Part shown: in pieces, positions 1 to 45,657 of the stretch
How positions within the stretch are numbered: the first letter of the stretch is position 1
Layout: each line of letters begins with the position of its first letter
DNA from: Raja brachyura
Taxonomy: Eukaryota
Length of the DNA: 64,000 nt
Direction of reading: 5' to 3'
Assembly (NCBI GenBank): GCA_963514005.1
Contig: OY740808.1
Span: 29,078,001-29,142,000 of the forward strand
Translations under genes and position numbers: made by a program
The notes under the pieces: model-generated
The model's input: only the letters and a program-made list of their open reading frames with translations
Databases searched by the model: none
What the model was told of the DNA's origin: nothing

Positions 1-96
1 TCATTATGATTTCATAACACCTTGAAACTTCCCTTTTGGGCTATTTAAAATTGTGATAAGATTTTATTTATAATTATTTTCTATGTTTTATTGCAG

Positions 97-177: not shown

Positions 178-247
178 GTATTAGAATCTTAACTCTAACG
201 TTAGTACACTGTGCTGTGATTTCCACATGAACAAATGAATTTTGTGG

Positions 248-1845: not shown

Positions 1846-2057
1846 AGGGCAAACTCCTGAGTCTGAAGAAAGGTCTTGACCTGAAACGCGACCAATATAT
1901 GTTCTCCAGAGATGGCCTGACCTGCTGAGTTACTCCAGCACTTTGTGTTTTTTACCCATGCTGAAGAAGGCAAGCTTGCCCTGCCTGCCTATGTTGCCAC
2001 TTTAGTAGTTGATTTCTTGTACAATATACAGCAACAAAAATGTATCTCTTCCCACAG

Positions 2058-2183
2058 GAATGGTACGAAGAGCATGCCCGAATAAACCAAATGCAGCAGG
2101 ACCAACCACTGGAATGTATTTTGAACTCCAACACGCACCTGCCATCTGCAGAATTGCGGCAGCGCTCTCAGACTGTAACTTAG
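2058..2183 (+). CDS. TPCN1: Two-pore channel 1, last coding exon
   Basis: cccacag| then EWYEEHARINQMQQDQPLECILNSNTHLPSAELRQRSQTVT-TAG; matches the TPC1 terminus (EWYEEHAR...RQRSQTVT). Confidence 0.93.
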   Translation, partial: EWYEEHARINQMQQDQPLECILNSNTHLPSAELRQRSQTVT

Positions 2184-10061: not shown

Positions 10062-10250
10062 TTAAATATGTATAATTTCAGCTTCAGTCAATAGTGCTAT
10101 TATAACAAATATTACATAATAGGAGACTAAAATAATGCCGTATAATCGTGTGAACTTAAAGCCTTGAAGCGGGATCAATATAAATGACATAACAAGACTG
10201 AAGCCGAGTGATCCAACTAGAACCCAATCTAGGAGGCCATCGCATTTGAT
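10062..10250 (-). CDS. SLC8B1: SLC8B1 last coding exon
   Basis: IKCDGLLDWVLVGSLGFSLVMSFILIPLQGFKFTRLYGIILVSYYVIFVIIALLTEAEIIHI-TAA, 189 nt. Confidence 0.94.
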   Translation of the reverse strand: MKCDGLLDWVLVGSLGFSLVMSFILIPLQGFKFTRLYGIILVSYYVIFVIIALLTEAEIIHI

Positions 10251-16200: not shown

Positions 16201-19200
16201 CTGACCCACTGAGTTACTCCAACTTTGTGTCCATCTTCAGTTTAAGCAAGTTTCTGCATTCCACCCATCACACCCTGCATCTTGATTCCCTTGGGTGTTT
16301 AAAAAGTTATCACAAAAAAAAGTACTACATGACTAAATATAATGGAATTGATTTTCCATGGCTGAGCATCCTCAGTACTCGAGATTTACTATCCAAATTT
16401 AACTATGGACTAATCTTCCTCTTTATACGACAGATACCCAATCCCATTTCCGACAGGCAAATTCTCCGTGCCAAATCAAAGGGAAAACGGATCCTTTAAA
16501 AACATGAAGCATGAAACATGAAGCAAGTGCATCTCCAGATACAGAAATCAAATCTACACTTGGTATTCTTGTTGTGATCCCAAACTACTGTTAAGTTGTG
16601 GCATGATTTCCTTATACTGGCATGCAAATCCCCTGGGGAGTTGTAGATAGACAAAATGCTAGAGTAACTCAGTGGGTCAGGCAGCATCTCTGGAGAGAAG
16701 GAATGGGCGACATTTCAGGTCGAGACCCCAGCTGCATTCTATAAAGTTGGGTGTAATGTTGCTGTCATTGACAAAGTCCATTGCTTGAATGAATGGCTTT
16801 TGAGACTTCGAGGGGTGTTGGGTGTTAATTACATTGATAGGTCCGGAGTTCAAAACCAGACCTTCACCAGGACGTTAAACCAAGTGTGCTCTGATTCACT
16901 ATGAAAATGTCAAAGACCCAGTTTAGACTTTTTATGGCACCCTATCAGAGGGCATGTTGACCAGAAAGTGATCCATTTATTCCAGTCATTTCTTAATCAT
17001 TCACTTTTCCATGCTAACATACCACTGCAACCATGTACATTATGAAATGTGCAGGATAAAGCAGGGATAAAGAAATTGTAAATATTTCCCTCGAGATATT
17101 AAATTTTTATAGTGTCCAAAGATAACCTTTTAACCGAGCAGATATTCATGAACTGGTTTCACCAATTTCGTTCTCCATTAAAAAATGCTTCATTATAATA
17201 CACCTCACAATTTACCATTGGACAATTTTAAATTCCTCTGCTTCCTAGCATAGCTTTTGGCCACAAGATTCAGCACGAGACAGATTAAAATCAAAAGATC
17301 AATCTCTAATCAACATTGCAGCAATAAGCAAAATAACGGTGGCGTAACAGAGCTACTGCCTTACAGTGCCAGAGACCCGGGTTCGATCCCAACAATGGTG
17401 CTCATCTTTATGAAGTTGGTACGTTCTGCCCGCGACCCGCATGGGTTTTTTTTTACCCCAGAGATCTTCGGTTTCCTCCCACTAGAGACACAGGTTTGCA
17501 AGTTAATTGGCTCGGTATAAAATGTAAAATTGTCACATGTGTGCGTGGGTAATGTTAATGTGTGAGGATCGCTGGACAGTACAGACTCTGTGGGCCGAAG
17601 GGCCTGTTTCTGCACTGTATCGCTAAAACTAATCCAAAATCAATTGCAGCGGAATTGGTTTTATGAAAATTGTACAGAATTAGATTTAAATTGGCAGACA
17701 TTTAAACTAATGCAGCTTCCAAATCCCTGAATGTAATGTTGGGAGCTTGCAGTGCAAGTCCATTGACCCCGATAATCATGCTTAAAGTATATTAACTGCA
17801 ATTAATTCATTCACAACACCAGTATTTATCTCATTCTCCCATGGAGTACCCAAAAAAACCACAAATAAATAAAAAATCTAAAACTCCTGTTCACTTGCAA
17901 CAATAAAACAGCATGGGAGAGGAGAAAAAAAAAAGTACTTCTGGAATCAATTATCCCAATGAGTAAGCAGGGAAGGGAGGATGCAAAAACAACATCGGCA
18001 ATTGCGCAAGTTGCCTAAATTCAGAAAGCGTTCTGCTTTTGGCTGCCAATTCAGTTTGAAGAAAATCTAAATGTCAAGGAAAGCAACTTAACTAATAGTC
18101 CTTCTGCAAACTGTATTAGTCACATGTCCATATGTTTTAGAAAACTCCTTTTATCTAAACTTGAGATATCAAATTTCAACCAGACCCACCCCAGATTTGT
18201 CTGACCGTTACAATGTTTTTCTCTTATTTTAACACAGTGATGCAAATAAAATTCTTACAGTAGCCAGATTTAAATACAAGGATGCAGACAAGCGAGCCGG
18301 TAACTATCTGTAGACAATTCAGGGGCCGCTTCCAGTTTTGATTATCTTGGTCAAAGTCAACCACAGGAATACAAAGCAGAAGCAAAAACTCGATTGGCAG
18401 CTGGAAGAGAGAAATGAAAGCATCAGAAAGTTGCAACTGAACATTGTAATTAGAACAGACAACCAGTCTAAAATGAGGAAACTAAATCAAGGCACGAGGG
18501 AGGAGGGAGCGGGTGCCGCAAGGAAAATGGGGAAGACTAGAAACCAACAGCAAAACAATTGGAAAAAAATGACTAAAATTAGCTCTGGAAAATAAACAGT
18601 GATTTGGTTACAAATGACGAACTCACAAGCTGAAGTTTCAATTTGTCTTGGTTGCAGAGGGAAGGGAAGAGACGGCCATTATGGGAACCGAAAACTTCAC
18701 CCAAATTATTTAAGCAAAACGTTTGACAAAACTGGAGATTTACATTCTGGACCATTATAACGATTCGCCTTCCTCTGAAAGTGAAACCAAATAGCAAAAT
18801 ACAGCATCTCAGTGCACAGTGCATTAACAATGGCCTCAAACACTGCAATTTAGAATTAAGCTTCCAGTACATTTTAAAGCAAGGGTGCCACAGTGGCACA
18901 ACAGTAGACTTGCTGCCTCACAGCGCCAGAGACCCGGGTTCGATCCTGACTACGAGTGCTGTCTGTATGGAGTTTGTACGTTCTTCCTGTGACCGCGTGG
19001 GTTTTCTCCAGGATCTCCAGTTTCCTCCCACACTCCAAGGACGTACAAAGGTTTGTAGATTAATTGGCTTTGGTAAAAAAAATAGCTCTAGTATGTAGGA
19101 TAGTGTTAACTGTGCGGGGATCACTGGTCAATGTGGACACAGTGAGACAAAGGGCCAGTTTCCACGATGTATCACTAAACTAAACTCAAATCACCTTCAG

Positions 19201-22200
19201 GCATTTGAAAATCTTCCAGGGCAAATGTTTCCTCCTCCATTTTTGAAAGTCGATGGGATTAAGAGAGTCCAGCAAAATGGATTTGGTAGATCTCGATTCT
19301 TCTGTCTCAATTAAAGATTGATACTCGCTTGCTGCAGAGAGAAATCTTTGGTCAGAAATATAGAGTCTGCACTTTGGGATTTGCAAGCCAAAACCAAGGC
19401 AAAAGCAAAAGCCTATTGTTATGTCTTACATTGAACTGGCATGTACATTATATAACTATGTGCCAAAAATAGACAATGTCACAAACCAATTTATACGGGT
19501 TTGAAAGTACGGCACAGAAAGACCTCAACTTCAGTAAATTCGTCACATTACACATTCAAAAACAAAAAATGTTGTAAGCATATGGGGCAAACACAGGCAT
19601 GTGGGACTAGGATAGATGGGGCATCTTGGTTAGCATGGGGAAGTTACGCTGATGGGCCCCCGTTTCCAGGCTGGATGACTAACCCGAACAGTTTAGCTCA
19701 AGAGAAAGTGCTTACTGTCTTCAAGTGTAGTTCTCCTGATACATGTTGGAATCTCATCGTCATTGCCATTAACTGAAAAACAGTAATTATATTGTTTACT
19801 ACATCGAATAGCATACACATCTCAAAAGGACACAAAGTGCTGGAGTATCTCAGCAGCTTTGGCCACATCTCAGGAGAATATGGACAAGTGATGTTTCAGG
19901 CCAAGACTCTTCAAGTTGCCCTGTATAGTGCTCGTTCTAGAGCATTGCTCTACGCCGCTTCAGTTTTAATTGTCAAGTAGAACGTTAAACAGTTATTGTT
20001 TAACGCGTCTTCCAATGTATTGAAACATGCTTGTGGCACTAGTCCTGGAGAAGATAAGGCATGAAACGTAGAAGTCACTTTTAAAAAAAACACTATTCTG
20101 AAAGATGAAAAGTTAATAATCATTTAACAAAGCAAGCCACCATTAATCCACACAAACTTTGCCTTCTCAAAATTAGCAACGTACAAATATGCAGCAAGCG
20201 AGTAAGATGTATATTTCACAAAACACTTCAATGAGATAAAACCCAATTTAGTGTAGGATGGAACTGCAGATGCTGGTTTATACCGAATATAAACAAAACT
20301 CTGGAGTAACTCAGCGGGTCAGGCAGCATCTCTGGAGAAAAGGAATAGGTGGTGTTTCGGGTCCAGACTCTTCTTCAGACAGACTCGGGGGAGAGGGAAT
20401 CTAAAGGCATGACGAGGTACGAACAAATCAGAACCGGCAATGATGACCAAGGAGCCCACAATGGCCCATTGTTGGCTGTGGAGGTGATATCAAAGGGATA
20501 TGAACAGTGAAGCTAGCAGGATGACCAGAGGGTGGGGGAGGGTTACTTGAAATTAGAGAAATCAATATTCATACCACTGGGTTGTAAACAGCCCAAGCAC
20601 CATTAATGTGGCCAGCACTTTCTTACTACCGAGGGCAGTAGTTCAATTCTGCGATAATTGCGATTTGGAAAAAAGTCAGTTAAACAGGGGTTGGCATGTT
20701 ACTTACTTTCTGAATGATTGTTGTAGAGAGAAGCACGTGGCTGGTTTTTGCCCTTCTGGTAAATTACACTGCTTACGATTACCACGAGAACATAAACAGC
20801 ATAAAGGGCCAAGTAACCTACGGAGATAAAATATAAAGTTCATTTCACAATGAGAGTTCAAAGTCATATTGAATTGCCACAAAATTCAATTGGATAGATT
20901 GACAGAAGCTAAAGTCAAGTGATGTGACTTCCCCAAGTCAGCTCAAAATTCTCACCAAGTGCTTGTGCCAAATTAATACTCCCAAAGTAGAGGACCAGGA
21001 ATGCCCAGAAAACTGCCGCCATGTAGAAGGTAACGTCTCGGAGGAATGGTCTGGATGCCACTGTAAATGGTCTTGCAAGGCCAACACCTCCAGCAACAAC
21101 TGTGGTCACAAATATACCAGCACCTGCAAAGTAGCACAAAGTTTTACATCTTAAAGTATTCAGAGCAACTCATCCCAGACTCGAGAAGGCAACTGAACCA
21201 TCCTGCCAACTAGAGAGCCAAACTACTATCTACCTCGATGAAGACAGTCAGATGATCTTTGATCAGACTTTAGTGGCTTTATCTTGCACTAGATGTTATT
21301 CACATTATTCCCTTCATCACGTTTCCGAACACGGTTTAGCTCGATTGTAATCATGTATCGTCTTTTCGCTTTACACACAAAAGTTTTTCCACTGAACCTC
21401 GGTACACGTCACAATAAACCAACACAAACTAAAAGCATCTTATCACAATAAAGGGAAAGAAAAATCTCTTGCATATCATTATATAGGATACCAGCAAGGC
21501 AACATTGTTATAATGCTCTTCAAGACAATAATCACCTCTATATAGATGCAATCCAATGAATCCCACTCCCTCATACCCACCCCTACCAAGTCCATTTTCA
21601 AATATCAACACAGCTCCCACTGGATGCTATAACTGAATCTACCTTCATTATTACACTCAGCAAAGCACGACGTGGCAAATTTTCTTTTAAAAGGCATTGA
21701 TGCGTTGTATAGTGGAAATGTAGCCAATTAGTTTAATTCAGTTTAGAGATACAGCGTCGAAACGGGCCCTTCAGCCCACCGAGTCCGCACCGACCAGTGA
21801 TCCCCACTCTCCTACGCACGCTAGGGACAATTACACATACACCAAGCCAATTAACCGACAAACCTGTATGTCTTGTGTGTGGGAGGAAACCGAAGAACTT
21901 TGAGAAAACCCACATGGTCTCAGGGAGAACGTACAAACTCTGTACGGACAGCACCCGTAGTCGGCATTGATCCAGGGTCTCCGGCGCTGGAATATTTCCA
22001 AATGTCTGAAAATTACCCCAGAGAATCGAGGAGGGTGGTGGGAGTCGGCGACAGTGGATGCAAAACCTGTGTGGGCAACATGGTGCACAGCGGGAGAGTT
22101 GCTGCCTTAGGTTCGATCCCGGCTAAGGGTGCTGTCTGTACGGAGTTTGTATCTTCTCCCTGTGACCACGTCGGGTTTCTCTTAGATCTCTGGTTTCCTC

Positions 22201-25200
22201 CAACATTCCAAAGATGTACAGGTTTGCAAGTTAATTGTCTTTCTCCAAATGATAATTGTTCCGTGTGTGTAGGATAGTGTTGATGTGCAGGGACCGGCAT
22301 GGATTCAGTGGTCTGAAGGACCAGTTTCCACGCTGTATTTCTAAACTAACTAAGCAAAAGGCCAGTGAGAGGAGCCAGGGTCTTGCCTTTGCGCATTCAT
22401 GGTTGGCTGCAGGAGGCAGACCCCGAGGCATGGGCTGCATGGTGGCCAGGCGAGGAGAGGGATGATGTTTTGCTGGACGATCCAGATGCAAGCGACGGCT
22501 GCATTGGGGCTTTATGGCCAACTGCAGCTTGGACATTGAAAATGCCACCAAACCCCGACAACTCTTGTATATGGCGAGAGTGGGCTATTTCTGTACACTT
22601 TGTACTCAATCGGGGATTGTGCTGATCTTGACACAATTTACTGAATTGGATGCTAAAGAATGTCACTGTACCTCAGTACATGCAATAATAAAGAACCATC
22701 AAGCCTTTCTTGTACGCATTACAATGTATAGCCCATCCACATCATGTACATCTTCAGCCAAGACCCAGCAGGATCATCTTCCTTGATATAGCCATTAATT
22801 CCTCAAGGCAGCACGGTGGTGCAGCGGCAAAGTCGCTGCCTTACAGCGTTTTCTGCACCAGAGATGCCGGTTCGATCCCGACTACGGGTGCTGTCTGTAC
22901 AGAGTTTGTACATTCTCCCCGTGAGTTCTCCTCACAGCTCTTCAGTCCTCCCACACTTCAAATATGTACAGGTTTGTAGGTTAATTGGCTTTGTATAAAT
23001 GTAAATTGTCCCTCGTGTGTATAGAAGTGTTAATATGCAGAGATCGCTGGTTGGCGTTGACTTGGTGGGCCGAAGGGCCCCGTTTCCGCGATGTATTTCT
23101 AAACTAAAGATAGATACAGTAACTCCAGATCAGACCTCTAAAAATCCTATCCTTGGTCATGCCTGAAGAATGGTTTCGCATTTCCTGTTCCAGAATATTT
23201 TTTCATGCTTTTAGTCCTTTTCAAAACTTAATCTGCAGTTTAATCAGCCCAGTTGTCACATGTTTAAAATCTGGCAATTTGTTCTTCTGTTTTACTGTTC
23301 ATAGAGTGATATCACATACACACATGGTCCATTTTATCTTCCATAGCCGTTCTGAATATTATGGCTGCAATTTCCAAGCTCCTTCCAGCACCGGAACTGG
23401 ATTCACCTGGTTCATTTCCCCCGAATGAACGATAATACCGCTGTCCTTCATGTTGTGTGAATCAGTAACATCTTGACCAAGCAAGTTCTTAGTTTAATTT
23501 GGAGACACAGCATGGAAACAGCCCCACCCTGACCAAGTTCCCACTGATCATCAATCACCCACTCCCATTAGTTTCATGTTATCCCACTTTCTCATCCACT
23601 ACCTAAACATCAAGATCAATGTTTAGCGGCCAATTAATCTACCAACCCACAAGTCTTTGGGACGTGGGAGGAAATCGGAGCACCTGGAGCAAACCCACGT
23701 GCAAACTCCACACAAGCAGCACAATAAAGGTCAAGATCAAGCCCGGGTTTCAGGTGCTGTGAGACAGCAGTTCTACCCACTGCACAGCCCTCTTCTCCCA
23801 AATACACCTCGTTTAAAATAAATGACATGTTAAATAGCCAAGTGAAAGTGCAAAGAAACAACTTACCGAACAAAGCTCCAATCGCCAGGCTTGCTGTTCG
23901 AGTATCAGAAAAGGCTGCTATTGCACTGAATAGATCAGGAGCTCCGTTACCAAGGGCAAGGAAAGTGACACCATGAATATACTCAGTCAAGGACACGTGA
24001 TGAATAAATAAATGGTGTACAAGTCAGAAATATCTTTGCAAATAAACCAAACCTCAATTATCTCGAGCTAATTAAAACAAGTCTTGGGTGCACAAGCTTA
24101 GAGCTGAAAATTGGGAACAATTTTGAACATCCCAATGTGAACAACAATTCACATTTAATATGAAAGGTGTATTTGAAACATTTAGAAATCCTCTATTTAA
24201 AAAAGAGAACAGGTTTTTGTCTTCCTTGCCAAACTTAGAGTGCATGACATAGCTCAATACAATAACTCCAACCACAGAACGAGATGCAATTAAATACTTC
24301 CAGACAACTTAACTACACTTCTCAGTAACTTTGACCTGGTTTTCACAAGGTTGACAATTGCTTGTAAATCTCTTGCTCGTGGACCATTCACATGGGAGTA
24401 CAGAACACGAGATAGAGGTCAATAGTTACAGTCAAACATCTACAATTCAAACAAGTGGGACTTAATGGCTGGCCAACTATTACAAGTTAATTTGATCAAA
24501 AAATATCAGGAGCAAGCAGTGGAATTTGGAAGATACACAATATCAAATTTTAAAAAACAGCTCTTCCTAACATGGAATTTAAAGAGTCCCAATATATGGG
24601 TCAAGTACGCATTAGAGCTGCCTAGTCCCAATATCAAGGCAGTCATTATAGTAACAGAAAAACAGCTGTACTATGGATGTCAACTACTGAAATTAGGATA
24701 AAATGGAGGCAAAATAGTTTGAGACCAAAGTGGTGGGATGCTGTGGGGGGGAATACAAACGAGGACCCGGTGTGGGGGAACTACGATGGGGGGGTGGTGA
24801 AGGAACAAAGGACCCTGTGTGAGGTACGTTGTTGGCAACCTTTATGTGGCAACTCTTTGCATACCTTGGGTATACACAACAAAGAAAATAACTGACTTGT
24901 CACATGACAATTAAGTATTCATTCACTCATTCTTTTGCATTACTGATTATATTCTGCTATGGTGTGATGTGCTTGGATAGCAGACAACAGTTTTTCTCCA
25001 CTATATAAAACATTAAGCTTTGAATACATCCAGGAATTCAACGGCTGATAAAAAGGATACTGCCACATTATGTGACAACTTCAAACTTGTCGCTATGGCA
25101 GCCAGATTTGGGCAGAAGCTAAAGAGAAACAAAATGAATGAGACTTGCCTTTAAAATGTGTTTGAAGATCAGAACAGTTAAGAAACCACAAATTATAATT

Positions 25201-28200
25201 AGCTCCACTGCCAATGAGGGACAGAATCATATTTTAAAAGAGGTGGGTAAATATCAAGACATTTAGTGCATGAAGGAATGGCTGTAACATGTGGATAGAT
25301 TTTCCAGAAACAGCACACGCAATGTGCACTACATAAGTTATAAGTTAATTAAACCTAGAACTAGCAACTCTAGATTTAACCCAGAGAATATTCCCGGAGC
25401 AGGGAAAGATTTCATGTACAAAACTGAGGCATTTGCATTCTCCAATTTCAAGTAATACCCCCCCCACCCCTCTCTCCTGTGCCCCTCCCCACACCCATTC
25501 TCCCGACCCCTCTTCCCTCCAACCAATATCACTACCCGACTTAACATTTCACGTCTCTTCTCTCCTTTCATAACTAGCCTTAATCACTTCACCCTTTGTT
25601 CCAACATCTACCTATCCAACCCACCTTTGTTCACCCATTGTCTGACACTTCGTCCTGCCTTTCCTCACTCCCGGCTTTCTCCCCCAGCTACCAGTCTGAA
25701 GAATGGCACAAAATGCTGGAGTAACTCAATGGGACAATAGGAATAGGTGACGTTTTGAGTCTTCAGTCTGAAACAAATCACCTATCCATAGGTAGACAAA
25801 AGTGCTGGAGAAACATCTAAGATGTTGCTGCAGCCGCTGAGTTTCTCCAGCACTTTTGTCCACCTTTGATTTTCCAGCATCTGCAGTTCCTTCTTAAACA
25901 CATCACCTACCCATGTTGGCCAGAAACAGTGCTTGACCCACTGAGTTAATCCAGCACTTTGTGTCCCTATCTAGTCTGATCTCTTTATCATAAAGTTGCA
26001 GAACAGAACAAATTGTAATCTCACCAAAAATCTACAGTGTCTGACCAACAATTTCCTGCCACGTGGAGTTTCAGAACACGTGACAAATACCACCATCCAA
26101 TATACAAAACTTTGTTCTGCATAGTTTAGCCTGGAAAGGTTTTACATTCGATTGAAGCGGAAACATCTCTACTTGATTTACAAGCAATTCCAGAAACCCA
26201 ACCTCAGTCAATTGCCTTTAACTATATGGCATTTTAATCTTACTTTGAAGATTAAAAGATAACAGTTTTTCACAAACTGAAGAATGGAAAGCACGAAAAT
26301 ATTTTAAAATTCACAATTTTAAGATTAACTTCAATAACTACAAAAAGGGAACAGGGTAGACAAAGTTCCCGTAAAATGTAACGTCATGCAGAAAGAGTGG
26401 GTAAGCAAAAGATTGTTTAGGCAAGGAATTATATTACGCACCAAAAGTCAGCACTTACAATTTTTCAGCTGTTATTCCAAGGAACATGAATAGATAGAAC
26501 AACCAAACTGCCTGTGTAAAAACAAGTATGAAGAGACTGTTGGGCCTTATTTTACAAATCCTACCTTTTATTGTCAAGCATGTTAGAAATTCTAATCCCA
26601 ACCCTAAACAGTTTGAATGCAGCTATTTGCATTCTAGTCCAATGTACAACCACACATTTTGTCAACGTACAAATTCTACAAAAATAATCAAATTAACACT
26701 TGTCCCAAAAAACAGAATATCAAGGGTGACCCAATGCAAAAAAAAAAATGTTTTATGCAGTTTTAACTCAAGGTTTTAATGAATCATCTTGTAAACTGGG
26801 GCCAAGGAAAGAAGAGTGTTCACATCGCGGCCCAGTTCCCACCACTACACACAAGCGCGAGACACCTTTGTACGCAGATGCCGAGAAGCGTTCAGCTCTG
26901 GCTGAACAATTTCTAATCTTGTGATGGGGACTCGATAAGAAGATTGTGTAAACTGGCATTGTTAAGTAAATTGAGCACTTAATTTCTCAAGTTAAATTGC
27001 GCAAATCCACATAATGAACAGGAAAAATCAGTTGACGACCCTTAAATATTAATCAGTTACATCAACTGACAAATCCATTTGTGGATTTTTTGAGAGCATT
27101 GCAAAATTTGGGTTTTAAATTAACATTGATAATCACAGACTAATCCCATGACAATGACTAATACTCTCTGCTACTCATAGTGTGCATGCACGGTCATTGG
27201 AAAGATTATCACACGAATCTGCAAACATTTTAGGTCAAATTAGTGGAGTTAGGGGTGAATTGTTACATTTTAAAAATCCAAGAAATCTCTCTTAAAAGCA
27301 ATTTGAGTTGGAGAGAGGGGAAGCCATGCCCGTGATCCCAAAGAAACCTGTAGGATGAACTGCTAAATCTTTTTTTTGTATATATTTTTATTAGAGGCCA
27401 TACGTATTACAAATAATATAATAATTTTTTCAGATATGCATATTACACATTTCCAAAATTATATTATTACAAAGCAATATATATCAGCCTCAATTTTTTT
27501 TAATAGTGAAGAGAAAAAAGAGTAAAGAAAGAATAGATGTTTAATTTAAAAAGTGTGATTTTGATTATATGTGAGAAGAGAGAAAAAAATAATAAAATCA
27601 AAACAAAATCAAACAAAATTTAAAAATCCATATTACTAGCAAACAATTATTATACTTAAAGATAGAAAAACAGTATACATCTTAACAATGAATGGAACAA
27701 TTTCTAATACATATATAGAGACAAGTATATAAATCTCAGATTAAACCTTTTCATTTGATCTTACCACCGGGTACTTGTTGATGAACTGCTAAATCTTAAA
27801 AGGAAACTAAATAAATAATTGGCCGAGAATAGCAGGAGCTCTTGGTTTTTTTTTTTTTTAAAACAGTAAGCGGCCTAACAGAAAGCATAGTGGGATGGGT
27901 TAAAAAGATACAACATTTTAGAGCCTTAAATGATTAATGCTTGAGCCCAGAAAATGGACGGTGTTTAGTACAGTTGAATGCATGGCTAAAGACATTGTAT
28001 ACGAGGGCAGGCTTCCTGCAGCATTGGAGGCAGAGGGTTGACAACACAGGCAGATAGGATTAGCTCGGAATGCTAACATGGCTAGCACAGACATGGGTTG
28101 AAGGGTCTATTACTGCAATGTTCTAAAGATACAAGTTCTGATCAGAGGGCTGAAAGACAGCCAAGAAACCAATGAAATGTGTTGATAGAAATTGCCAAGT

Positions 28201-31200
28201 TTTATTCATAGTGGGTCAGCTTCCCTCCCCCCAAAACCAACTTCTTGCATCAAACTATAGACATAAAAGCCAACTAGACTACAACCACATTATTATTTAA
28301 AACATTAAAAATAGTAACCATCACCTTGTGCCCCTCAGACACTCCACTTTATTGGAGTTGTTCCAGGTCCAAACTGGTGCAGGGCCAGCATGTGGACTTG
28401 AATAGATGGAGCATCTTAGTTAGCATGGACATGTCGGGCCGAAGGGTTCATTGTGTGCTACATAACCGTATGACTATGTGCAGGTACTGGTGGAATTCAT
28501 TGACCAACAGCGGATCCTATGGAATCCAAAATCAAACGCAGGCTGGAAAACGCCCCCAAAGACCAGTTACCACATTTGCAACCTCCAGATTTTTGTGGAA
28601 ATTCAGACGGGTACATTGGAGAAAGTTGTTTGGAACATTTTTCTGCTAGATGCAGCTATTTCGGTTGTTAATACAATGCAATACTGACTACCATAGTTTA
28701 GCAGTCCATGATACTGATGACAATTGACCACAACCCTTGCATTTACTCAGTTCTACCATTATTGGCAATACTTACATACAGCACAATGGCCAGAGGCAGC
28801 AGATTGTGGCAAAAGCCACAGACAGCCCCTTGGAGGTAATCAATAAAGCCACTCCCAATTTTGCAGTCTTCGGTAGTTTTTACAAATGAACACCACTGGG
28901 ACCCATTCATATGCACAACATTGCGACACTAGGAAAGAACCAAAATATAGTTAGCAGATTCAACATTTACCTCCTGCACCCATGCAGAACTCATGGACTT
29001 CATTAACATCACCACCAATTTCCATCCTGCACTCAAATTCACTTGGACCATCTCAGACACGTCCCTCCCCTTTCTTGATCATCGTTACTTTTTGCTTTTT
29101 GTGTCTACCTTCATGATGAAACCCCATTCTTTCTAGTGTTTGGCACTTTCAAAATGTCAAATTACTTGACTGTAGACCACATTGATAAAGGCGACAGAAG
29201 GAATTGCAGATGCTGGAATCTTAAGCAAAAGACAAAATACCATGGTAATGCAGATGTTTAAGAAAGAACTGCAGATGCTGGAAAAATCGAAGGTAGACAA
29301 AAATGCTGGAGAAACTCAGTGGGTGAGGCAGCATCTATGGAGCGAAGGAATAGGTGACATTTCAGGTCGAGACCCTTCTTCAGACTGATAATGGTAGTTT
29401 AGATAGTAATGCAGATGATCAGGCAGGATCTGTGGAGGGAATATTCAGACAACCCTTCATCATTTTGAAGGATCCCAAACATCTGTCTATTCCCTCACAG
29501 ATGCTGCCCAACCCACCGGGTTAATCTAGCACTTTGTGTTTGATTTAAATGTAGCCATCGTTCTTGAAAACATTACTTGTCAGTGGCAGGTAGAAGCTAG
29601 GGATTTTTGTATACATTCAAATTACAGCGAGTCACATTTGTGTAATGGTTGTACAGTTGTGTACAGTTTGAGAAGTTAGACATTTTTACTCAAACTGCAA
29701 TTTGAGACAATGCAACCAAACTACATTTATAATGCTAGATCAGATCCTATCGTTAGGCTCAATTTTAAAAACCATTTCAGCGAGTCAAGATTTAGGTTTT
29801 GATTAGGAGACACAAGTTCCTTAATTAGCTCCCCCTCTCCCAGGGCAATTTATTCTCTCAAATTAACATTTGACAGATCTTCACATGGAAGTCAAGCCTG
29901 CCCAAAATCCTAGTGAGAATTTCAAATTGAAATACTTTCAAAAAAAGCACCTGGGCGCAATGCCAAATGGCAGAACATTGATTGATACAGGTGCAGTACA
30001 AGTAACTTGCACTTTCAGATAAAAATCTGAAGATCAAACCATATTCTAAAGAGAAGGGTCAGTGTGAGAGATCCTCCAATAATCTCCATCTCCCAGTTGC
30101 CAAACACTAACTGCCCTTCCCATACTGACCCCGTCCTGGGCCTCCTCCACTGTCAGTGAAGCCACACATAAATTGGAGGAACTGTACCTCATATTTTGCC
30201 TGGGCAGCTTGCAACCCAGAAACATCACCCATTCCTTTTTGCCAAAGATGCTGCCTGACCCGCTGAGTTACTCCAGCATTTTGTGTCCATCTTTGATGTA
30301 AACTAGCATCTGCAGTTCCTTTCTACGTGATAACAGTGGTCAGTTTGTGGGATTTTGCTGTGTGAAGGTTGGCTGGCATATGACCAGATCACACATCATT
30401 GCCAAGTCATTTTCAGACAATGCCCAGATGTATGAAAGAAGCTACACAAATGAATTGTCTCTATTGTTGGATATCAAATGGCACATCCATACCAGGACGC
30501 CCATGAAAAGGGTACCAAGCAATTTTTTTTTTTTTTTTTTTAAATAAAAAAGCCATATCAGAAATTTGGGTTTACTCAAAGATATTCAAGTATTGAATGT
30601 AACAATCACCTTATTTCCAATTTTGGAATGGCATTCAATTTGGTTTATGGCATTTCCCAATCATTAACATGGCCTGCTGCAGATGTAGTGTACAAATCAG
30701 GCTACTTGAAACGAGAAAACCAACAGATCCATTCTTTCATTAGATTTACCATGAAGCAGTCTGGCAAGGATAAAAACCAAGACAACAAGCAACTGGAAGA
30801 AAGCACGCTTTAAATATCTTCCCCATGACATAGGGCCATCATCAAGTGCCATCTCAGAGCATTTCCATTCCCCAGTGTATTTCTTTGTAAGATTCTCTCA
30901 TGCCAAACAACTCCATCCCGATTCTTCTGTTACATAGACCTCTGGTCTAAATAATTTACAGCAGCCAATTTATCTACTGAACAGCAAGTGTTTTAGACAG
31001 AGAAGGAAATGGGAGCACTCAGTATATCCACAGGGAGGACATGCAAGCCCCACACAGACAGCAGCAGAGGGGAGAATGAAATGCAGGTCGCTGGCACAGT
31101 GAGTCAGCTGCACTACCTGCTGGACAACTGTGCCACTCATACAAGTCAACACCTTGTGGTTTCAGAGTTCAGCCAGCCAAGAGGAACACCATAAAGACTG

Positions 31201-32275
31201 CGACGGGAAAGTCAAATATTAAAATGCCGCTAGCTGGACGGGGAGAGAGTTGCTGCTCGACTGAAAAACATGGTTGCAAATAGTGTTTGCATACCGATTT
31301 AAACAATCATATCAATAGGACAAACCATCATCTATTATTCAATTCATTTTAGAGTGACATTTGGAATATTTATGGTGCTCAAGATCTAAATAACAATCTT
31401 ACAATAACATAAGGTGGGCATACTGTTCGCTAGTCAGTGCTGGTATTAGATAACATGGCCCAATACCCAACGACTGTTAGCTGTTGCTCGAGTTATTAAC
31501 CGCGAGGACTAACAAAACTATCTTTTAACCGTGGCATGAAAACAAAATAATTCACCCCAACCCCCATACTAGATCCACAACAGCAACATGCCACAAACCG
31601 AAGGTCAGCTCCCGTAAATATCAGGTAGGGCACTCCACTAACAATTTGCAAATAGCGCTCTAATTAACGATTCGCCCCCACAAAGATGGTTTAGAATGTC
31701 TCCAGTAATAACACATCCGCCCGCCACCCTGAAGACGGGCAGCCTTACGACCTTTGAGCGATCGCACTCATACAGGAAGAACATTGCCGACCACAGTTAC
31801 CACTGTGATACTGGCGATAAAGGCAGGTCCTTGAATGAGCGGAACGTTTAAAAAGTGCCACACAATTAATTGCAAGACATCAACGAAAGTCATTCCCAGC
31901 TTCGGTCAAGCCGGAGATCAGAACGGAGATATAAATAGCTGGACATGGCAAAGCGTTCCTTCAGCTGTTGACATTAATCAATTGCAGAAACATTGAAATA
32001 GATCCGGGGGGGGGGGGGGGGGCAGTTTTTGCTATAGTTCTGTAAAATCATTTGGAGTCAACGCATGCAGAACATACCTCCATTGGCCGACTGGTGCCTT
32101 CAAACAGACTTTGCGAACTTGCATTAAAGGTGTTTTCAGAAGAATACGGCTCAATTATTCCAGCCACGTTGACAAGTGGATGCGATTCCGCCGCTCCCGT
32201 GGGCTCTAGTGAATTGCACTCGGCAGTCCCAAGCCAGAGCAGGCAGCAGATCACAGCAACGTCTCTTGCCTTCAT
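10062..32275 (-). CDS. SLC8B1: Na(Li)/Ca exchanger NCLX, complete multi-exon CDS (15 coding exons, 597 aa)
   Basis: Exons join in frame to 1794 nt; alpha-1 repeat GVTFLALGNGAPDLFS and alpha-2 repeat GLTLLAWGNSIGDLFSD; lies between TPCN1 and PLBD2 as in other vertebrates. Confidence 0.96.
11790..11854 (-). CDS. SLC8B1: SLC8B1 coding exon 14
   Basis: (N)MLFGIGLSALIQMPYNDNILE; preceded by U12 branch site TTCCTTAAT and tag. Confidence 0.92.
11855..11937 (-). other. U12-type GT-AG intron, 83 nt
   Basis: 5'SS GTATCCTTTT; branch TTCCTTAAT at 11873-11865, about 11 nt from the AG; no polypyrimidine tract. Confidence 0.9.
11938..12018 (-). CDS. SLC8B1: SLC8B1 coding exon 13
   Basis: (D)LFSDITVARQGYPRMAIAACFGGIIF, followed by U12-type donor GTATCCTTTT. 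Confidence 0.95.
13143..13430 (-). mobile_element. HE1/V-SINE-like element
   Basis: Reverse-orientation copy of the same family. Confidence 0.8.
13637..13790 (-). CDS. SLC8B1: SLC8B1 coding exon 12 (alpha-2 repeat start)
   Basis: VFAFIGFFFSIILINSVAIEIVNLLRSFGIIFNLSNTVLGLTLLAWGNSIG, 154 nt. Confidence 0.95.
14095..14545 (+). mobile_element. Penelope-like element 3' fragment (GIY-YIG endonuclease end plus pLTR)
   Basis: RRLGVRFAQHLRSVRNNQPDLPVADHFNSPSH and KLEEQHLIFRLGSLHPGGMNTDFSNF, followed by a hammerhead-like motif. Confidence 0.85.
15499..15620 (-). CDS. SLC8B1: SLC8B1 coding exon 11
   Basis: GLLLIRGQYPVWAVVLVITLVLAAVIFFFTKNEEPPKFHC, 122 nt. Confidence 0.92.
15787..15944. mobile_element. 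PIF/Harbinger-type MITE
   Basis: About 29-bp TIR AGGGCCYGTCCCACTTGGGCG; TTA TSD on both sides. Confidence 0.85.
17336..17632 (+). mobile_element. HE1/V-SINE-like element
   Basis: Same family as 18886-19186. Confidence 0.8.
18259..18400 (-). CDS. SLC8B1: SLC8B1 coding exon 10
   Basis: LPIEFLLLLCIPVVDFDQDNQNWKRPLNCLQIVTGSLVCILVFKSGY, 142 nt. Confidence 0.95.
18886..19186 (+). mobile_element. tRNA-derived HE1/V-SINE-like element
   Basis: A-box (gtggcacaacagtag) and B-box (gggttcgatcc), central V-like domain, CR1-like tail with ctaaa repeats. Confidence 0.85.
19195..19331 (-). CDS. SLC8B1: SLC8B1 coding exon 9
   Basis: SEYQSLIETEESRSTKSILLDSLNPIDFQKWRRKHLPWKIFKCLK, 137 nt. Confidence 0.92.
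19716..19772 (-). CDS. SLC8B1: SLC8B1 coding exon 8 (regulatory loop)
   Basis: tttttcag|(I)NGNDDEIPTCIRRTTLED|gtaag, 57 nt, phase 1/1; poorly conserved sequence but correct position and size. Confidence 0.75.
20260..20600 (-). mobile_element. Penelope-like element 3' end / pLTR
   Basis: Same family as 14095-14545 in reverse orientation. Confidence 0.75.
20707..20817 (-). CDS. SLC8B1: SLC8B1 coding exon 7
   Basis: YLALYAVYVLVVIVSSVIYQKGKNQPRASLYNNHSE, tag|...|gtaagt, 111 nt. Confidence 0.92.
20956..21123 (-). CDS. SLC8B1: SLC8B1 coding exon 6
   Basis: AGIFVTTVVAGGVGLARPFTVASRPFLRDVTFYMAAVFWAFLVLYFGSINLAQAL, 168 nt, phase 1/1. Confidence 0.95.
21731..23790. mobile_element. Cluster of four HE1/V-SINE-like copies (-,+,+,-)
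   Basis: Copies at about 21731-21990 (-), 22074-22352 (+), 22808-23107 (+) and 23495-23790 (-). Confidence 0.8.
23867..23972 (-). CDS. SLC8B1: SLC8B1 coding exon 5 (alpha-1 repeat)
   Basis: GVTFLALGNGAPDLFSAIAAFSDTRTASLAIGALF(G); preceded by branch site TCCTTGAC and a non-canonical ...CAT acceptor; donor gtaagt. Confidence 0.92.
23973..25060 (-). other. U12-type (minor spliceosome) intron with probable GT-AT termini
   Basis: 5'SS GTATCCTTTT; branch TCCTTGAC at 23993-23986; ends ...tatattcat|GGTGTC. Confidence 0.85.
25061..25118 (-). CDS. SLC8B1: SLC8B1 coding exon 4
   Basis: FCPNLAAIATSLKLSHNVA, followed by U12-type donor GTATCCTTTT. Confidence 0.93.
26459..26511 (-). CDS. SLC8B1: SLC8B1 coding exon 3
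   Basis: AVWLFYLFMFLGITAEK(F), cag|...|gtaag, 53 nt. Confidence 0.93.
27372..27779 (-). mobile_element. 5'-truncated L1-type retroposed insertion (AT-rich 3' UTR)
   Basis: 18-bp TSD GATGAACTGCTAAATCTT (27354-27371 and 27780-27797), AATAAA plus A-tail on the minus strand, TCTT/AA endonuclease-type site. Confidence 0.8.
28776..28928 (-). CDS. SLC8B1: SLC8B1 coding exon 2
   Basis: CRNVVHMNGSQWCSFVKTTEDCKIGSGFIDYLQGAVCGFCHNLLPLAIVLY, AG/GT flanks, 153 nt. Confidence 0.93.
28965..29080 (+). mobile_element. Penelope-like reverse transcriptase fragment
   Basis: Translates to SCTHAELMDFINITTNFHPALKFTWTISDTSLPFLD, a PLE RT-like segment. Confidence 0.75.
32078..32275 (-). CDS. SLC8B1: SLC8B1 coding exon 1 (signal-peptide-like N-terminus)
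   Basis: ATG at 32275, MKARDVAVICCLLWLGTAECNS...RPME, donor GAG|gtatgt; acceptor ttctttgtgcag 14 nt upstream of the ATG. Confidence 0.85.
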
Positions 32276-32635
32276 GTCTACGGTTCAGTCTGCACAAAGA
32301 ACACGAGTCAATGCACTTTTAATTTGCAATTACCACTGTGCGGTCATTACATGAATGGGAAGTCGCTGGGGAAGAGCGAATTTCATTAACGTTAATGAAC
32401 GCAGAAGGCGTTTCCATCGCTGGTTTAGAAACAGCCGACAGTCGATTCGCGCAAATAAAGAGAGACCATAAAAGCAGGTTCGAACCCTCATTAGTCACAC
32501 CAGGAAGTAATTATTACAATAAATAAATACCAAGCTTAGTTTCACACCGACAATTATTTAGAGATAAATCATTGCACTTCTATCCTTTGCCTATTGCTTC
32601 TCCATTTGTAAACCCTCTTGAAAGGAAAAACTTAC

Positions 32636-32785
32636 GGATGTAACACCTCCCCCGTTCCACTAGACACTAACCAGCCAACACAACAGCAGCTCCGCATGTC
32701 CTTATCATCTCATCTCCCCAATTAAATCAGTTCAGCTCCAATTAACCCACGAGACCAGGGGACACCACCGGGACAATTTAGTGCA
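32636..32785 (-). other. Probable non-coding first exon of SLC8B1 (5' end is a guess)
   Basis: Perfect donor CC|GTAAGT at 32635-32630 upstream of the acceptor at 32291-32290; the TSS cannot be read from sequence. Confidence 0.5.
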
Positions 32786-32962
32786 GCACAAAGGTCCTAT
32801 AGCGGAGCTATATATAGGATCTTTGGTGCAACCGAACCCGCGCCCTGAGATATCCAGCACTGACCAGAGGAGCAAGATGCGCCACTCAGTGGAAATCCAA
32901 TGGGCTGGTGTGTAGTACGTAACGGAACGTCACGGCCGTCATTTTGGCGGACTGCCTCCCCA

Positions 32963-33738
32963 TGTGTAATCCGCTCCAAAGCTACAGAGCAGTTGCAAGC
33001 GAAGATTATAGAGGAGCAAGATGCATTAGAAAGCTATTAGATTTATTTGTAATAGATCTTTACTTACTTCTCGATCCCTCTCTATCCCTCTCGATCTTTC
33101 TCTCCCTCTCCCTCTTTCGATCTCCCTCCTATGTTCTCTCGATCTCCCTCCCTCCCCTCTCCCCCTCCTTCCCTCTCTCTCTCTCTCCCCCACTCCCTTT
33201 TCCCCCTGTTCCCCCATTTCCCTCGCATTTTTCCTCCCCAGCCCCTCTTTTGCGTAGTTTACCTTGCATTGCATTGTGCAGCTTCCCTTGTATTGCTTTA
33301 ACACACTGTGCACAAAATTACAGGCACACACATTCATATAAATATATGGTGGGACAGATAGAAGCAAATCTTTGGATAGAAGAGCTTATTAAAATCTTCC
33401 TACAAAGACCATTATGTAATGTATTTCTATCCTCTTTTGGGCCGAAGGCATAGCAGGGCTGCCAACTCTCAAACAGAGGGGAGAGAGGGAGGGAGAGAGG
33501 GAAATCGAGAAGAGAGGGGAGAGAGATAGATCGAGAGGGGAGAGAAAGAGATCGAGAGGGGAGAGAGAGCGATAGAGAGAAGAGAGGGTGATCGAAAGAG
33601 GGAGATAGCGAGAAGAGAGGGGATAGAGGGGGATCGAGAGGTAAGTAAAGATCTATTACAAATAAATCTAATAACTTTCTAATGCTCCTCTATAATCTTT
33701 GCTTGCAACTGCTCTGTAGCTTTGGGGCGGATTACACA
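32963..33738. repeat. Inverted duplication (about 130 bp arms plus complementary CT-rich and GA-rich tracts)
   Basis: About 32963-33092 is the reverse complement of about 33615-33738, with few differences. Confidence 0.9.
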
Positions 33739-34173
33739 GCGGCAGATCGAGAGACAAAGGTCATAGAGAAGCCCAGTTTCCCAGTAGACGCCATAGTCGA
33801 CGCCATCTCTGGTCCGCTAATATGGCGTCGCCAATCAGACACGCGATACTACACTTTTTTCACTGAGTGGCGCATCTTGCTCCTCTATAATCTTTGTCTG
33901 TCTGTTCACCGTCAACTTCCAATCATTGGGATTTGACACCAAGGCAATCACGTTGTTACTTGGTACCTGCTGCATTTCGCGTTGTCAAAAAAAAAGCAAA
34001 AAAACCCGTCGGACAAACCTTGATAGAAATATTTATATATATTTGATGGGTGTGGGTGGATTGTATAAATTATATTTATACATTATATATATATACAATG
34101 TGTGTAGATGCAAAGATAGCATTGGCAGCACGAACAGGCAGATGGTTACATGATGGTGTAGCAGATGCCGGGG

Positions 34174-34390
34174 CCACGTGACGGGGGGGAGCCGGGGACG
34201 GCACATGACGAGGGTGTCTGGGGCACGTGATGGGGGAAGCTGGTACCATAACCACGTGATGGGGCGATGGGCCAGTGGGATCACGTGATGGGTCGGTGGG
34301 ATCACGTGATGAGGCGGCGGGTCGGTGGAATCACGTGATGCGTTTCCGACGCGGCCCTGTATCACGTGACGGGTGTTTGGGTCACGTGAC
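34174..34390. promoter_or_regulatory. Tandem CLEAR/E-box array (TFEB/TFE3/MITF/USF type) in the PLBD2 proximal promoter / CpG island
   Basis: CACGTG at 34175, 34224, 34253, 34282, 34303, 34332, 34363 and 34383 (the last is a perfect GTCACGTGAC), plus CACATGAC at 34202. Confidence 0.85.
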
Positions 34391-34403: not shown

Positions 34404-34633
34404 ATGGCGGCGACGGCTGACGGGTCCGAGCGACCCCGATGCCCGGCGCGGCCCAGACCTGCCGCTCTGCTGCTCCTCCTCACGGCGCTGCTCCAGCCTC
34501 TGCTGGCGACCTCCGACATCCACTTCATCTCGGCGGTGCTGGAGAAACACGGCGGCAGGCTGAGGGTGGTGCCGGGGCTGCGGAAGGACGGAGTGGCGTG
34601 GGGCAGCTTCCGGGACGACATCAAAACCACGGG
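34404..34633 (+). CDS. PLBD2: PLBD2 exon 1 (signal peptide)
   Basis: aacATGg Kozak; [35 protein letters not shown]...[15 protein letters not shown]; donor GG|gtaggg; within a CpG island. Confidence 0.92.

Positions 34634-45618: not shown

Positions 45619-45657
<39 letters not shown>

What the first reader, a model, noticed from the sequence alone, without database searches (positions are those of the whole stretch)
19309..32275. NCLX here looks like a secretory/endolysosomal protein inside a lysosomal gene cluster
Seen: the N-terminus MKARDVAVICCLLWLGTAEC resembles an ER signal peptide rather than an amphipathic mitochondrial presequence. The following Cys-rich segment has N-glycosylation sequons (NAS, NGS). 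The large loop contains E-Y-Q-S-L-I (19326-19309), which fits both [DE]xxxL[LI] and Yxx-phi adaptor motifs. The gene is flanked by the endolysosomal channel TPCN1 and lysosomal PLBD2 and shares an upstream region holding eight CLEAR-type boxes. Known: NCLX is usually described as mitochondrial. Inference: TPCN1-SLC8B1-PLBD2 may be a co-regulated endolysosomal module, with NCLX acting as an acidic-organelle cation/Ca2+ exchanger. Speculative, but the strongest system-level candidate in the window.
Basis: partly seen in the sequence, partly recalled or inferred. Interest (0 to 1): 0.7.

Follow-up and report, generated by a model that had tools for sequence, protein, structure and literature searches.

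The report
"Mitochondrial" exchanger carries lysosome address tag
This skate or ray gene encodes NCLX, a calcium exchanger normally described as mitochondrial, yet its sequence has a likely secretory signal peptide, a conserved sugar-attachment motif and an acidic dileucine motif kept from sponges to rat, so the protein likely goes to endosomes or lysosomes, where it would load calcium in exchange for protons.

Summary
The protein half of the finding holds and strengthens; the gene-module half mostly does not. The window holds an intact 15-exon, 597-aa batoid SLC8B1/NCLX. EYQSLI lies in a predicted disordered loop that published protease mapping puts on the cytosol side. E, Y and the first L are invariant in 117 of 117 vertebrate orthologues. 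[DE]xxPL[LI] recurs in 15 of 45 named invertebrate genera (shuffle mean 0.5) and 26 of 119 distant homologues (mean 1.9), spacing-specifically. A sequon between invariant cysteines is kept in 114 of 117. The N-terminus is hydrophobic, not presequence-like. Published tables agree: mouse N60 called N-glycosylated in a lysosome fraction; lysosomal assignment in 2 of 6 proteome lists. Against: NCLX loss lowers mitochondrial Ca2+ efflux, human has LF instead of LL, and two Lyso-IP sets miss it. The eight E-boxes are real but sit 15-223 bp from the PLBD2 start, about 2 kb from SLC8B1's; TPCN1 is tail-to-tail. Likely an endolysosomal H+/Ca2+ exchanger (0.6); localisation untested here.

The parts
10062..32275 (-). 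SLC8B1/NCLX coding span: 15 exons, 597 aa (32275-32078, 28928-28776, 26511-26459, 25118-25061, 23972-23867, 21123-20956, 20817-20707, 19772-19716, 19331-19195, 18400-18259, 15620-15499, 13790-13637, 12018-11938, 11854-11790, 10250-10062)
   Evidence: Open frame with one terminal stop; 92% identical to Rhinoraja longicauda and 82% to Mobula hypostoma NCLX; exons recovered by tblastn; PDB hit rat NCLX 9ps1
32216..32275 (-). Predicted cleavable ER signal peptide, aa 1-20 (hydrophobic core about aa 6-17; candidate cleavage after aa 18, 20 or 22)
   Evidence: Net charge 0 in aa 1-20 and -2 in aa 1-30; KD9 2.93; low hydrophobic moment. Heuristic only; SignalP not available
32117..32125 (-). Sequon N51-A-S in the exon-1 stretch before the Cys domain
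   Evidence: this stretch is low-confidence in the orthologue model
28818..28928 (-). Four-cysteine N-terminal domain (C67, C79, C88, C103) with sequon N74-G-S at 28907-28899; aligns with rat N60
   Evidence: Cys conserved at 0.99-1.00 in 117 vertebrates, CCCC in 45 of 45 invertebrates and 102 of 119 distant homologues; sequon 114 of 117, shuffle 25.4; two disulfides in the rat structure; mouse N60 called glycosylated
19309..19326 (-). Acidic dileucine plus YxxPhi motif EYQSLI (aa 304-309) in the TM5-TM6 loop
   Evidence: E/Y/L invariant 117 of 117, dileucine 116 of 117; rat EYRPLL; pLDDT below 50 coil 277-314; loop protease-accessible in human NCLX
23867..23972 (-). Alpha-1 repeat exon (NGAPD, Ca2+-binding D167 = rat D153)
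13637..13790 (-). Alpha-2 repeat exon (NSIG-D487 = rat D471, codon split by intron 12)
32290..32636 (-). Candidate 5'-UTR intron: GTAAGT donor near 32636 and pyrimidine tract plus CAG acceptor just upstream of the ATG; implies a non-coding first exon, start site unknown
   Evidence: Sequence only; no transcript data
32866..33896 (.). About 1-kb inverted-repeat (foldback-like) element between SLC8B1 and the E-box cluster
   Evidence: Arms of 108, 63 and 30 nt at 79-97% complementarity; no other copy in the window
34173..34390 (.). Cluster of eight CACGTG E-boxes (one full GTCACGTGAC) in the CpG island directly upstream of PLBD2
34404..64000 (+). PLBD2 (lysosomal hydrolase), head-to-head with SLC8B1; runs off the window
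   Evidence: Pfam PF04916 in 5 of 7 candidate exon ORFs tested; signal-peptide-like N-terminus
94..2183 (+). Last two coding exons of TPCN1, tail-to-tail with SLC8B1, about 7.9 kb between stop codons

Best explanation
This gene encodes an intact NCLX whose hydrophobic N-terminus likely takes it into the ER, whose four-cysteine domain is likely disulfide-bonded and N-glycosylated in the lumen, and whose conserved E-Y-x-[PS]-L-[LI] loop motif likely binds clathrin adaptors that send it to endosomes or lysosomes, where it would exchange lumenal protons for cytosolic calcium. Shown in sequence here: gene structure, transport-site residues, N-terminal character, cysteines, sequon, motif and their conservation. 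Shown in published work on mammalian orthologues: the loop faces the cytosol side and both termini are protected; two N-terminal disulfides; H+/Ca2+ exchange in which acid on the outer (lumen-equivalent) side drives Ca2+ out of the cytosol; N60 glycosylation; lysosomal assignment in two proteome lists. Inferred: signal cleavage, adaptor binding (AP-3, AP-1 or AP-2), the steady-state organelle and calcium loading in vivo. The gene order is conserved at least loosely to cattle, but the E-box cluster is best read as the PLBD2 promoter; any effect on SLC8B1 is secondary and TPCN1 is not part of it.
For: Motif: E304, Y305, L308 invariant in 117 of 117 named vertebrates while the preceding 37 loop columns average 0.39 (max 0.80). 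In 119 distant homologues, D/E stands at -4 of PL[LI] in 27 of 41 sites against a 14% background; [DE]xxPL[LI] in 26 loops (null 1.9, max 7), other spacings 6, 8, 8, reversed 1, K/R version 2, and 0 of 80 N-terminal regions. Named sponge, coral, molluscs, hemichordates, amphioxus, bryozoan and centipede carry it (15 of 45, null 0.5). The motif is in predicted disorder on the protease-accessible side. N-termini: 82 of 101 have KD9 of 2.0 or more, only 9 of 101 net charge +3 or more, median +1. Sequon 114 of 117, at offset 7 or 5 from the first Cys by clade. Literature: mouse Slc8b1 N60 deamidated only after PNGase F in macrophage lysosome fractions (PMC5352332); SLC24A6 in the Chapel (734 genes) and Jadot (318 genes) lysosome lists (PMC10025164 Table S12); disulfides, H+ coupling, intact mitochondrial Na+/Ca2+ exchange in knockouts, localisation by differential centrifugation with no lysosome marker named, and no useful native antibody (PMC12571890); rat NCLX reaches the cell surface in HEK cells (PMC13483046); yeast Ycx1 is ER/Golgi and not mitochondrial (PMC10126930).
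Against: NCLX knockout lowers, and expression restores or induces, Na+-independent Ca2+ efflux attributed to mitochondria in HeLa and Sf9 cells. GO and UniProt list mitochondrion with experimental evidence. Human reads DEYRPLF, so the second leucine is F; its N-terminus has three Arg. SLC8B1 was absent from two Lyso-IP/Endo-IP supplements, from 4 of the 6 published lists, and appeared with one peptide and no ratio in 1 of 6 cell lines. The glycosite table also lists cytosolic proteins (KRas, Eef2), so it has false positives, and that fraction held 398 mitochondria-annotated proteins. The strict motif is missing from 30 of 45 invertebrates and 93 of 119 distant homologues; YxxPhi is not enriched outside vertebrates (61 vs 58). 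Most bird N-termini are only weakly hydrophobic. Orthologues are related, fish- and bird-heavy, with only two mammals seen. Dileucine motifs also serve endocytosis and Golgi sorting, and yeast and plant relatives are reported in ER/Golgi.
Confidence: 0.6

Rival explanations
1. NCLX is a secretory-pathway glycoprotein but works mainly at the plasma membrane, ER, Golgi or recycling endosomes; the motif drives endocytosis or Golgi retrieval, and lysosomal detections are protein on its way to degradation.
For: Surface biotinylation of overexpressed rat NCLX; early ER and plasma-membrane report as cited in PMC10126930 and yeast Ycx1 in ER/Golgi; Arabidopsis CCX4 in Golgi (title); absence from Lyso-IP sets.
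Against: The ExxPL[LI] form resembles lysosome/melanosome signals such as those of LIMP-2 and tyrosinase (recalled, not tested). Two fractionation studies assigned it to lysosomes. An H+-coupled exchanger has most driving force at an acidic organelle (inference).
Confidence: 0.17
2. Dual localisation: a glycosylated endomembrane pool and a separate inner-mitochondrial pool, for example from an alternative start or failed signal recognition in mammals.
For: Functional mitochondrial efflux data; Arg-rich human N-terminus; 11 ray-finned fish records begin at a Met 8-14 residues before the first Cys.
Against: No presequence features in fish and shark N-termini; short records may be annotation errors; SLC8B1 was not seen in the stored part of the MitoCoP tables where TMEM65 is class 1 (files cut, so weak).
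Confidence: 0.16
3. The textbook view: NCLX is exclusively an inner mitochondrial membrane protein; the loop motif has another job (phospho-tyrosine or partner binding) and the sequon is unused.
For: Database annotation; fractionation, protease protection and efflux assays; the invariant Tyr could have another role.
Against: Spacing-specific ExxPL[LI] without Tyr in invertebrates; sequon kept at shifting offsets; N60 glycosylation call; disulfides on the supposed matrix side; the protease result fits any sealed vesicle in a crude pellet (inference).
Confidence: 0.07
4. TPCN1, SLC8B1 and PLBD2 form a co-regulated TFEB/TFE3 module (independent of the localisation question).
For: Dense E-box cluster in a head-to-head interval; the three genes also lie together in cattle (PMC6125589); SLC8B1 called UP with TFEB dose; NCLX mRNA rises on starvation.
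Against: Boxes hug PLBD2 and are about 2 kb and one inverted-repeat element from SLC8B1; TPCN1 is convergent and negatively correlated (PCC -0.49, FDR 0.15); none of the three was ChIP-bound. That dataset also left MCOLN1 unbound, so it is insensitive. CACGTG is also bound by USF and MYC/MAX (recalled).
Confidence: 0.12

Closest known systems
Mammalian NCLX/SLC8B1 (rat structures PDB 9ps1, 9z4i; PMC12571890, PMC13483046)
   Same: Orthologue: full-length match E 5e-197 with a ray query; same Ca2+ aspartates, same substitutions at the Na+ sites, same four cysteines, sequon, loop motif and C-terminal His.
   Different: No difference in kind. The batoid N-terminus lacks the Arg cluster of human NCLX, which makes its signal-peptide character plainer. 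What differs is the proposed address: endolysosomal rather than mitochondrial.
CCX family: yeast Ycx1/YDL206W, Arabidopsis CCX4
   Same: Same CaCA branch per PMC10126930 and PMC12571890; reported in the secretory pathway, not in mitochondria.
   Different: Reported in ER/Golgi rather than lysosome or vacuole; their own sequences were not examined here.
Vacuolar H+/Ca2+ exchangers (yeast Vcx1, plant CAX)
   Same: Works like: proton-driven Ca2+ movement by protonation of the Ca2+-binding acids, an analogy drawn in PMC12571890.
   Different: Different CaCA family; NCLX is not a member. Ion coupling of NCLX is disputed (H+ only versus non-selective cations).
Membrane proteins sorted by acidic dileucine signals (LIMP-2, tyrosinase; recalled)
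   Same: [DE]xxxL[LI] with Pro before the leucines, in a disordered cytosolic segment.
   Different: Signal is in an internal loop and overlaps a YxxPhi in vertebrates; human has LF; adaptor binding untested.
TMEM165 as lysosomal Ca2+ importer (10.1101/2024.05.09.593345, listing only); TMEM65 as mitochondrial Na+/Ca2+ exchanger (PMC12830682)
   Same: TMEM165 claims the job proposed here; TMEM65 takes over the job long given to NCLX.
   Different: Not CaCA exchangers (TMEM65; TMEM165: recalled). TMEM65 has a prototypical presequence and TOM40-dependent import.

Membership tests
SLC8B1/NCLX (CCX branch of CaCA) | Two alpha repeats with Ca2+-binding aspartates | tested here: met
   NGAPD167 and NSIGD487 match rat D153 and D471; Pfam Na_Ca_ex on the 92% identical orthologue
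SLC8B1/NCLX (CCX branch of CaCA) | NCX Na+-site residues replaced (rat G150, A177, V181, G494) | tested here: met
   G164, A191, V195, G510
SLC8B1/NCLX (CCX branch of CaCA) | Best full-length matches are SLC8B1 orthologues | tested here: met
ER-targeted N-glycoprotein | N-terminal hydrophobic core with small-residue cleavage site | tested here: met
   KD9 2.93, 13-residue uncharged run, candidate -3/-1 sites; heuristic, SignalP not run; 82 of 101 orthologues reach KD9 2.0
ER-targeted N-glycoprotein | Sequon on the lumenal side, conserved | tested here: met
   114 of 117 vs 25.4 by shuffle; 55 of 106 vs 23.4 in distant homologues
ER-targeted N-glycoprotein | Sequon actually occupied | not testable with these tools
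   Mouse N60 called glycosylated in PMC5352332; no hit in the held N-GlycositeAtlas file, which is probably cut
Presequence-targeted mitochondrial protein | Arg-rich, net positive, acid-free amphipathic N-terminus (criteria recalled) | tested here: not met
   One R, one K, D and E in aa 1-20, net -2 in aa 1-30, moment 0.20; 9 of 101 orthologues reach +3
Mitochondrial inner-membrane protein without presequence | Import via internal signals and TOM/TIM22 | not testable with these tools
   SLC8B1 not found in the stored part of the TOMM40 importomics table (cut)
Acidic-dileucine-sorted endolysosomal membrane proteins | [DE]xxxL[LI] conserved beyond its surroundings and beyond chance | tested here: met
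   exceptions: human LF, Echeneis, all 18 chelicerates examined
Acidic-dileucine-sorted endolysosomal membrane proteins | Motif cytosolic and unstructured | tested here: met
   Predicted coil, pLDDT below 50, aa 277-314; sidedness taken from published protease mapping
Acidic-dileucine-sorted endolysosomal membrane proteins | Binds AP complexes and motif is needed for localisation | not testable with these tools
   No eukaryotic adaptor chain available for modelling; needs experiment
Acidic-dileucine-sorted endolysosomal membrane proteins | Steady-state residence in endosomes or lysosomes | not testable with these tools
   Published lists: 2 of 6 positive; two Lyso-IP sets without the protein
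CLEAR network gene | CLEAR boxes close to the start: PLBD2 | tested here: met
   Eight cores 15-223 bp upstream of the ATG; transcription start not mapped
CLEAR network gene | CLEAR boxes close to the start: SLC8B1 | tested here: inconclusive
   1.9-2.1 kb from the ATG; no CACGTG between 32200 and 34170; non-coding first exon unmapped
CLEAR network gene | Upstream region shared with TPCN1 | tested here: not met
   TPCN1 is tail-to-tail; promoter outside the window
CLEAR network gene | TFEB binding and induction | not testable with these tools
   Human HEK293 data: SLC8B1 UP but unbound; PLBD2, TPCN1 and MCOLN1 unbound

The most novel reading that the evidence does not exclude
NCLX has been placed in the wrong organelle: it is an ancient, dileucine-sorted endolysosomal H+/Ca2+ exchanger that fills acidic calcium stores in vertebrates, and the mitochondrial effects of its loss are largely indirect.
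Probability: 0.35. Interest if true: 0.92.

Novelty: new member of a known kind. Interest (0 to 1): 0.74.

Why it matters
NCLX is pursued as the mitochondrial calcium exit route in heart failure, Alzheimer's disease and metabolism. Work from 2025-26 removed its Na+/Ca2+ role (TMEM65 does it) and showed proton coupling, but still assumes mitochondrial residence on crude fractionation and without a working antibody. How lysosomes refill calcium is a separate open question. A single conserved six-residue motif and one glycosylation site make both questions testable with two point mutants and a glycosidase digest. The gene and its fold are known; the new content is the sorting signal's conservation and the re-reading of existing data.

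Tried and rejected
Single-sequence motif match as evidence: rejected, too common by chance. YxxPhi as the ancient signal: not enriched outside vertebrates (61 of 119 vs 58; 19 of 45 vs 18.8). Three-gene CLEAR module: rejected on geometry and TFEB data. The first exon assembly had a wrong exon-3 start and was corrected. Proteome look-ups without SLC8B1: Endo-IP/Lyso-IP, tagless LysoIP, N-GlycositeAtlas (file about 4.0 million characters, probably cut), MitoCoP (2 of 3 files cut); NCLX is rarely detected, so these count little either way. The Chapel 2013, Jadot 2017 and Carey 2020 papers were not held. The look-up that would have named the distant homologues could not be made, so the taxa of most of those 119 are unknown; named invertebrates came. 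Rows left out: of 149 unnamed representatives, 16 at 47% identity or more and 14 outside 520-1050 aa; 17 of 118 N-termini lacking Met or shorter than 30 aa before the first Cys; unnamed records and extra isoforms. No complex prediction or fold search was run. No other vertebrate genomic DNA was reachable, so conservation of the E-boxes and introns is unchecked. bioRxiv supplements were closed and 3 of 15 files of PMC10025164 were not searched; they may hold further SLC8B1 rows.
Full report
What is in the window. The minus strand carries an intact SLC8B1 (NCLX) gene: 15 coding exons from 32275 to 10062 give 597 aa with one terminal stop. The model is 92% identical to Rhinoraja longicauda NCLX and 82% to Mobula hypostoma, so the source is a skate or ray. 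The Ca2+-binding aspartates (D167, D487), the four substitutions that remove the NCX sodium sites and the C-terminal His match rat NCLX. PLBD2 starts at 34404 on the plus strand, head-to-head. The last two TPCN1 exons end at 2183, tail-to-tail.

Checking the observation. NAS lies before the cysteine domain, not in it. In a single sequence the motif means little: 15% of shuffles of the loop contain a dileucine pattern and 35% a YxxPhi. Only one box is the full palindrome, and the cluster lies 15-223 bp from the PLBD2 ATG but 1.9-2.1 kb from the SLC8B1 ATG, beyond a 1-kb inverted-repeat element.

The loop motif. In 117 named vertebrate orthologues (14 cartilaginous fish, 61 ray-finned fish, 42 lobe-finned fish and non-mammalian tetrapods, one per genus) E304, Y305 and L308 are invariant and 116 fit [DE]xxxL[LI]; the 37 columns before it average 0.39. 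Rat reads EYRPLL; human reads EYRPLF. An AlphaFold2 model of the Rhinoraja protein puts the motif in low-confidence coil, aa 277-314. Published protease mapping shows this loop exposed and both termini protected. In 119 distant homologues (46% identity or less; 16 closer and 14 off-length unnamed hits left out) the loop is 40-425 aa and poorly alignable, yet 26 contain [DE]xxPL[LI] against 1.9 expected (max 7 in 400 shuffles). Other spacings give 6, 8 and 8, the reversed pattern 1, the basic version 2, and N-terminal regions 0 of 80. In 45 named invertebrate genera not chosen for the motif, 15 carry it (null 0.5), from sponge and coral to molluscs, hemichordates and amphioxus; none of the 18 chelicerates does. 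The tyrosine is a vertebrate addition. These sequences are related, so counts are not independent events, but retention of exact spacing in a free loop is what selection on a short linear motif looks like. That ExxPL[LI] is the form typical of lysosomal and melanosomal cargo is recalled, not tested.

Secretory features. Four cysteines are near-invariant in vertebrates, complete in 45 of 45 invertebrates and 102 of 119 distant homologues. The rat structure shows two disulfides here, on the side called matrix; disulfides are expected in the ER lumen rather than the matrix (recalled). A sequon between C67 and C88 is kept in 114 of 117 (25.4 by shuffle), at offset 7 in 66 and offset 5 in 46, which suggests selection for a glycan rather than a residue. 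Of 101 usable N-termini, 82 have a hydrophobic core of KD9 2.0 or more, 9 reach net +3, and the median charge is +1; birds are weak. These are heuristics. Plasma-membrane NCX proteins also have signal peptides (recalled), so these features say secretory pathway, not lysosome.

Published data. Mouse Slc8b1 N60, which aligns with N74 here via rat, was called a glycosite in macrophage lysosome fractions by PNGase-dependent deamidation; the same table has evident false positives. SLC24A6 is on the lysosome lists of Chapel and Jadot but not on four others. Two Lyso-IP supplements lack it. Fan et al. found mitochondrial Na+/Ca2+ exchange intact in knockouts and showed that low external pH drives Ca2+ out of NCLX-expressing oocytes. 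Topologically that is loading of an acidic lumen (inference). Their localisation used differential centrifugation with MCU, COX2, actin and histone controls, and they report no useful native antibody. They also found that NCLX loss lowers, and expression raises, Na+-independent efflux attributed to mitochondria, the strongest evidence against my reading. Zhang et al. found rat NCLX at the cell surface and non-selective for cations. Yeast Ycx1 is ER/Golgi.

Regulation. The box cluster is far above chance and fits a TFEB/TFE3-type PLBD2 promoter; PLBD2 is enriched in lysosome isolates. In human HEK293 cells with rising TFEB, SLC8B1 was called up (7.2 to about 7.5-7.7 on the table's scale; FDR 0.034), PLBD2 had FDR 0.09, TPCN1 fell, and none was ChIP-bound, nor was MCOLN1. 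NCLX mRNA rises on starvation. The three genes also lie within one interval in cattle. A weak SLC8B1 link is possible; a three-gene module is not supported.

Mechanism and odds. Most likely NCLX is made at the ER (about 0.9), sorted by the loop motif to endosomes or lysosomes (0.6), and exchanges lumenal H+ for cytosolic Ca2+ there. The bold form, a misassigned lysosomal Ca2+ loader with indirect mitochondrial effects, I put at 0.35. Rivals: other secretory compartments 0.17, dual localisation 0.16, mitochondria only 0.07.

Novelty. The gene is a known orthologue. I saw no paper proposing lysosomal NCLX or describing this motif in the listings. I read listings only (up to 40 of as many as 492 hits), and the library lacks most subscription papers, so this is weak evidence of absence; non-mitochondrial NCLX has been reported before (as cited).

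What I saw of each paper. PMC12571890: sections 8 and 9 whole, plus passages. PMC13483046: first seventh of the text, plus passages. PMC12830682, PMC12894878, PMC10126930, PMC5352332, PMC6125589, 10.1101/2023.03.17.533187: passages. PMC10025164, PMC7518873: passages and supplement rows. PMC11670117, PMC12130315, PMC6731604, PMC11827837, PMC8664129: supplement searches only. PMC10828203 and 10.1101/2024.05.09.593345: search listing only. Chapel 2013 and Jadot 2017: not seen, only their gene lists as reprinted in PMC10025164.

Noticed in passing
window 23973-25060 (-), SLC8B1 intron 4: Minor-spliceosome (U12-type) intron signature, GTATCCTTT donor and CCTTGAC branch site, but the intron must end in AT rather than AG to give the NVA-GVTF junction seen in all 49 orthologues. 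An AG 9 nt upstream would insert three residues into the alpha-1 repeat. Could be a non-canonical GT-AT intron, a variant or a sequencing error. U12 consensus recalled.
   Followed up: partly
window 11855-11937 (-), SLC8B1 intron 13: Second U12-type signature (GTATCCTTT, CCTTAAT branch, AG end), 83 nt, in the alpha-2 region; these are the only two GTATCCTT sites on this strand.
   Followed up: partly
window 32866-33896: About 1-kb inverted-repeat element with purine/pyrimidine-rich inner arms between the two genes; no second copy in the window.
   Followed up: partly
chelicerate homologues, e.g. P0231, P0370, P0396, P0403, P0413: All 18 spider, tick, mite, scorpion and horseshoe crab records lack the dileucine motif, and nearly all also lack an N-terminal hydrophobic core in their annotation: possible joint loss of both signals, or truncated gene models.
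   Followed up: no
ray-finned fish records, e.g. P0046, P0057, P0108, P0183: Eleven records start at a Met 8-14 residues before the first conserved Cys, i.e. without the signal peptide; annotation error or a short isoform.
   Followed up: no
window 19716-19772 (-), exon 8: This 57-nt acidic loop exon is absent from the Rhincodon, Stegostoma and Pristiophorus isoforms examined while the motif exon is kept, suggesting alternative splicing just upstream of the motif.
   Followed up: no
window 42471-42616: Assembly gap of 146 N inside PLBD2, next to a GA-rich simple repeat.
   Followed up: no
window 55390-56121 (+): Broken ORFs in a PLBD2 intron that read like the end of a LINE (L2/CR1-type) reverse transcriptase; label recalled, not tested.
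   Followed up: no
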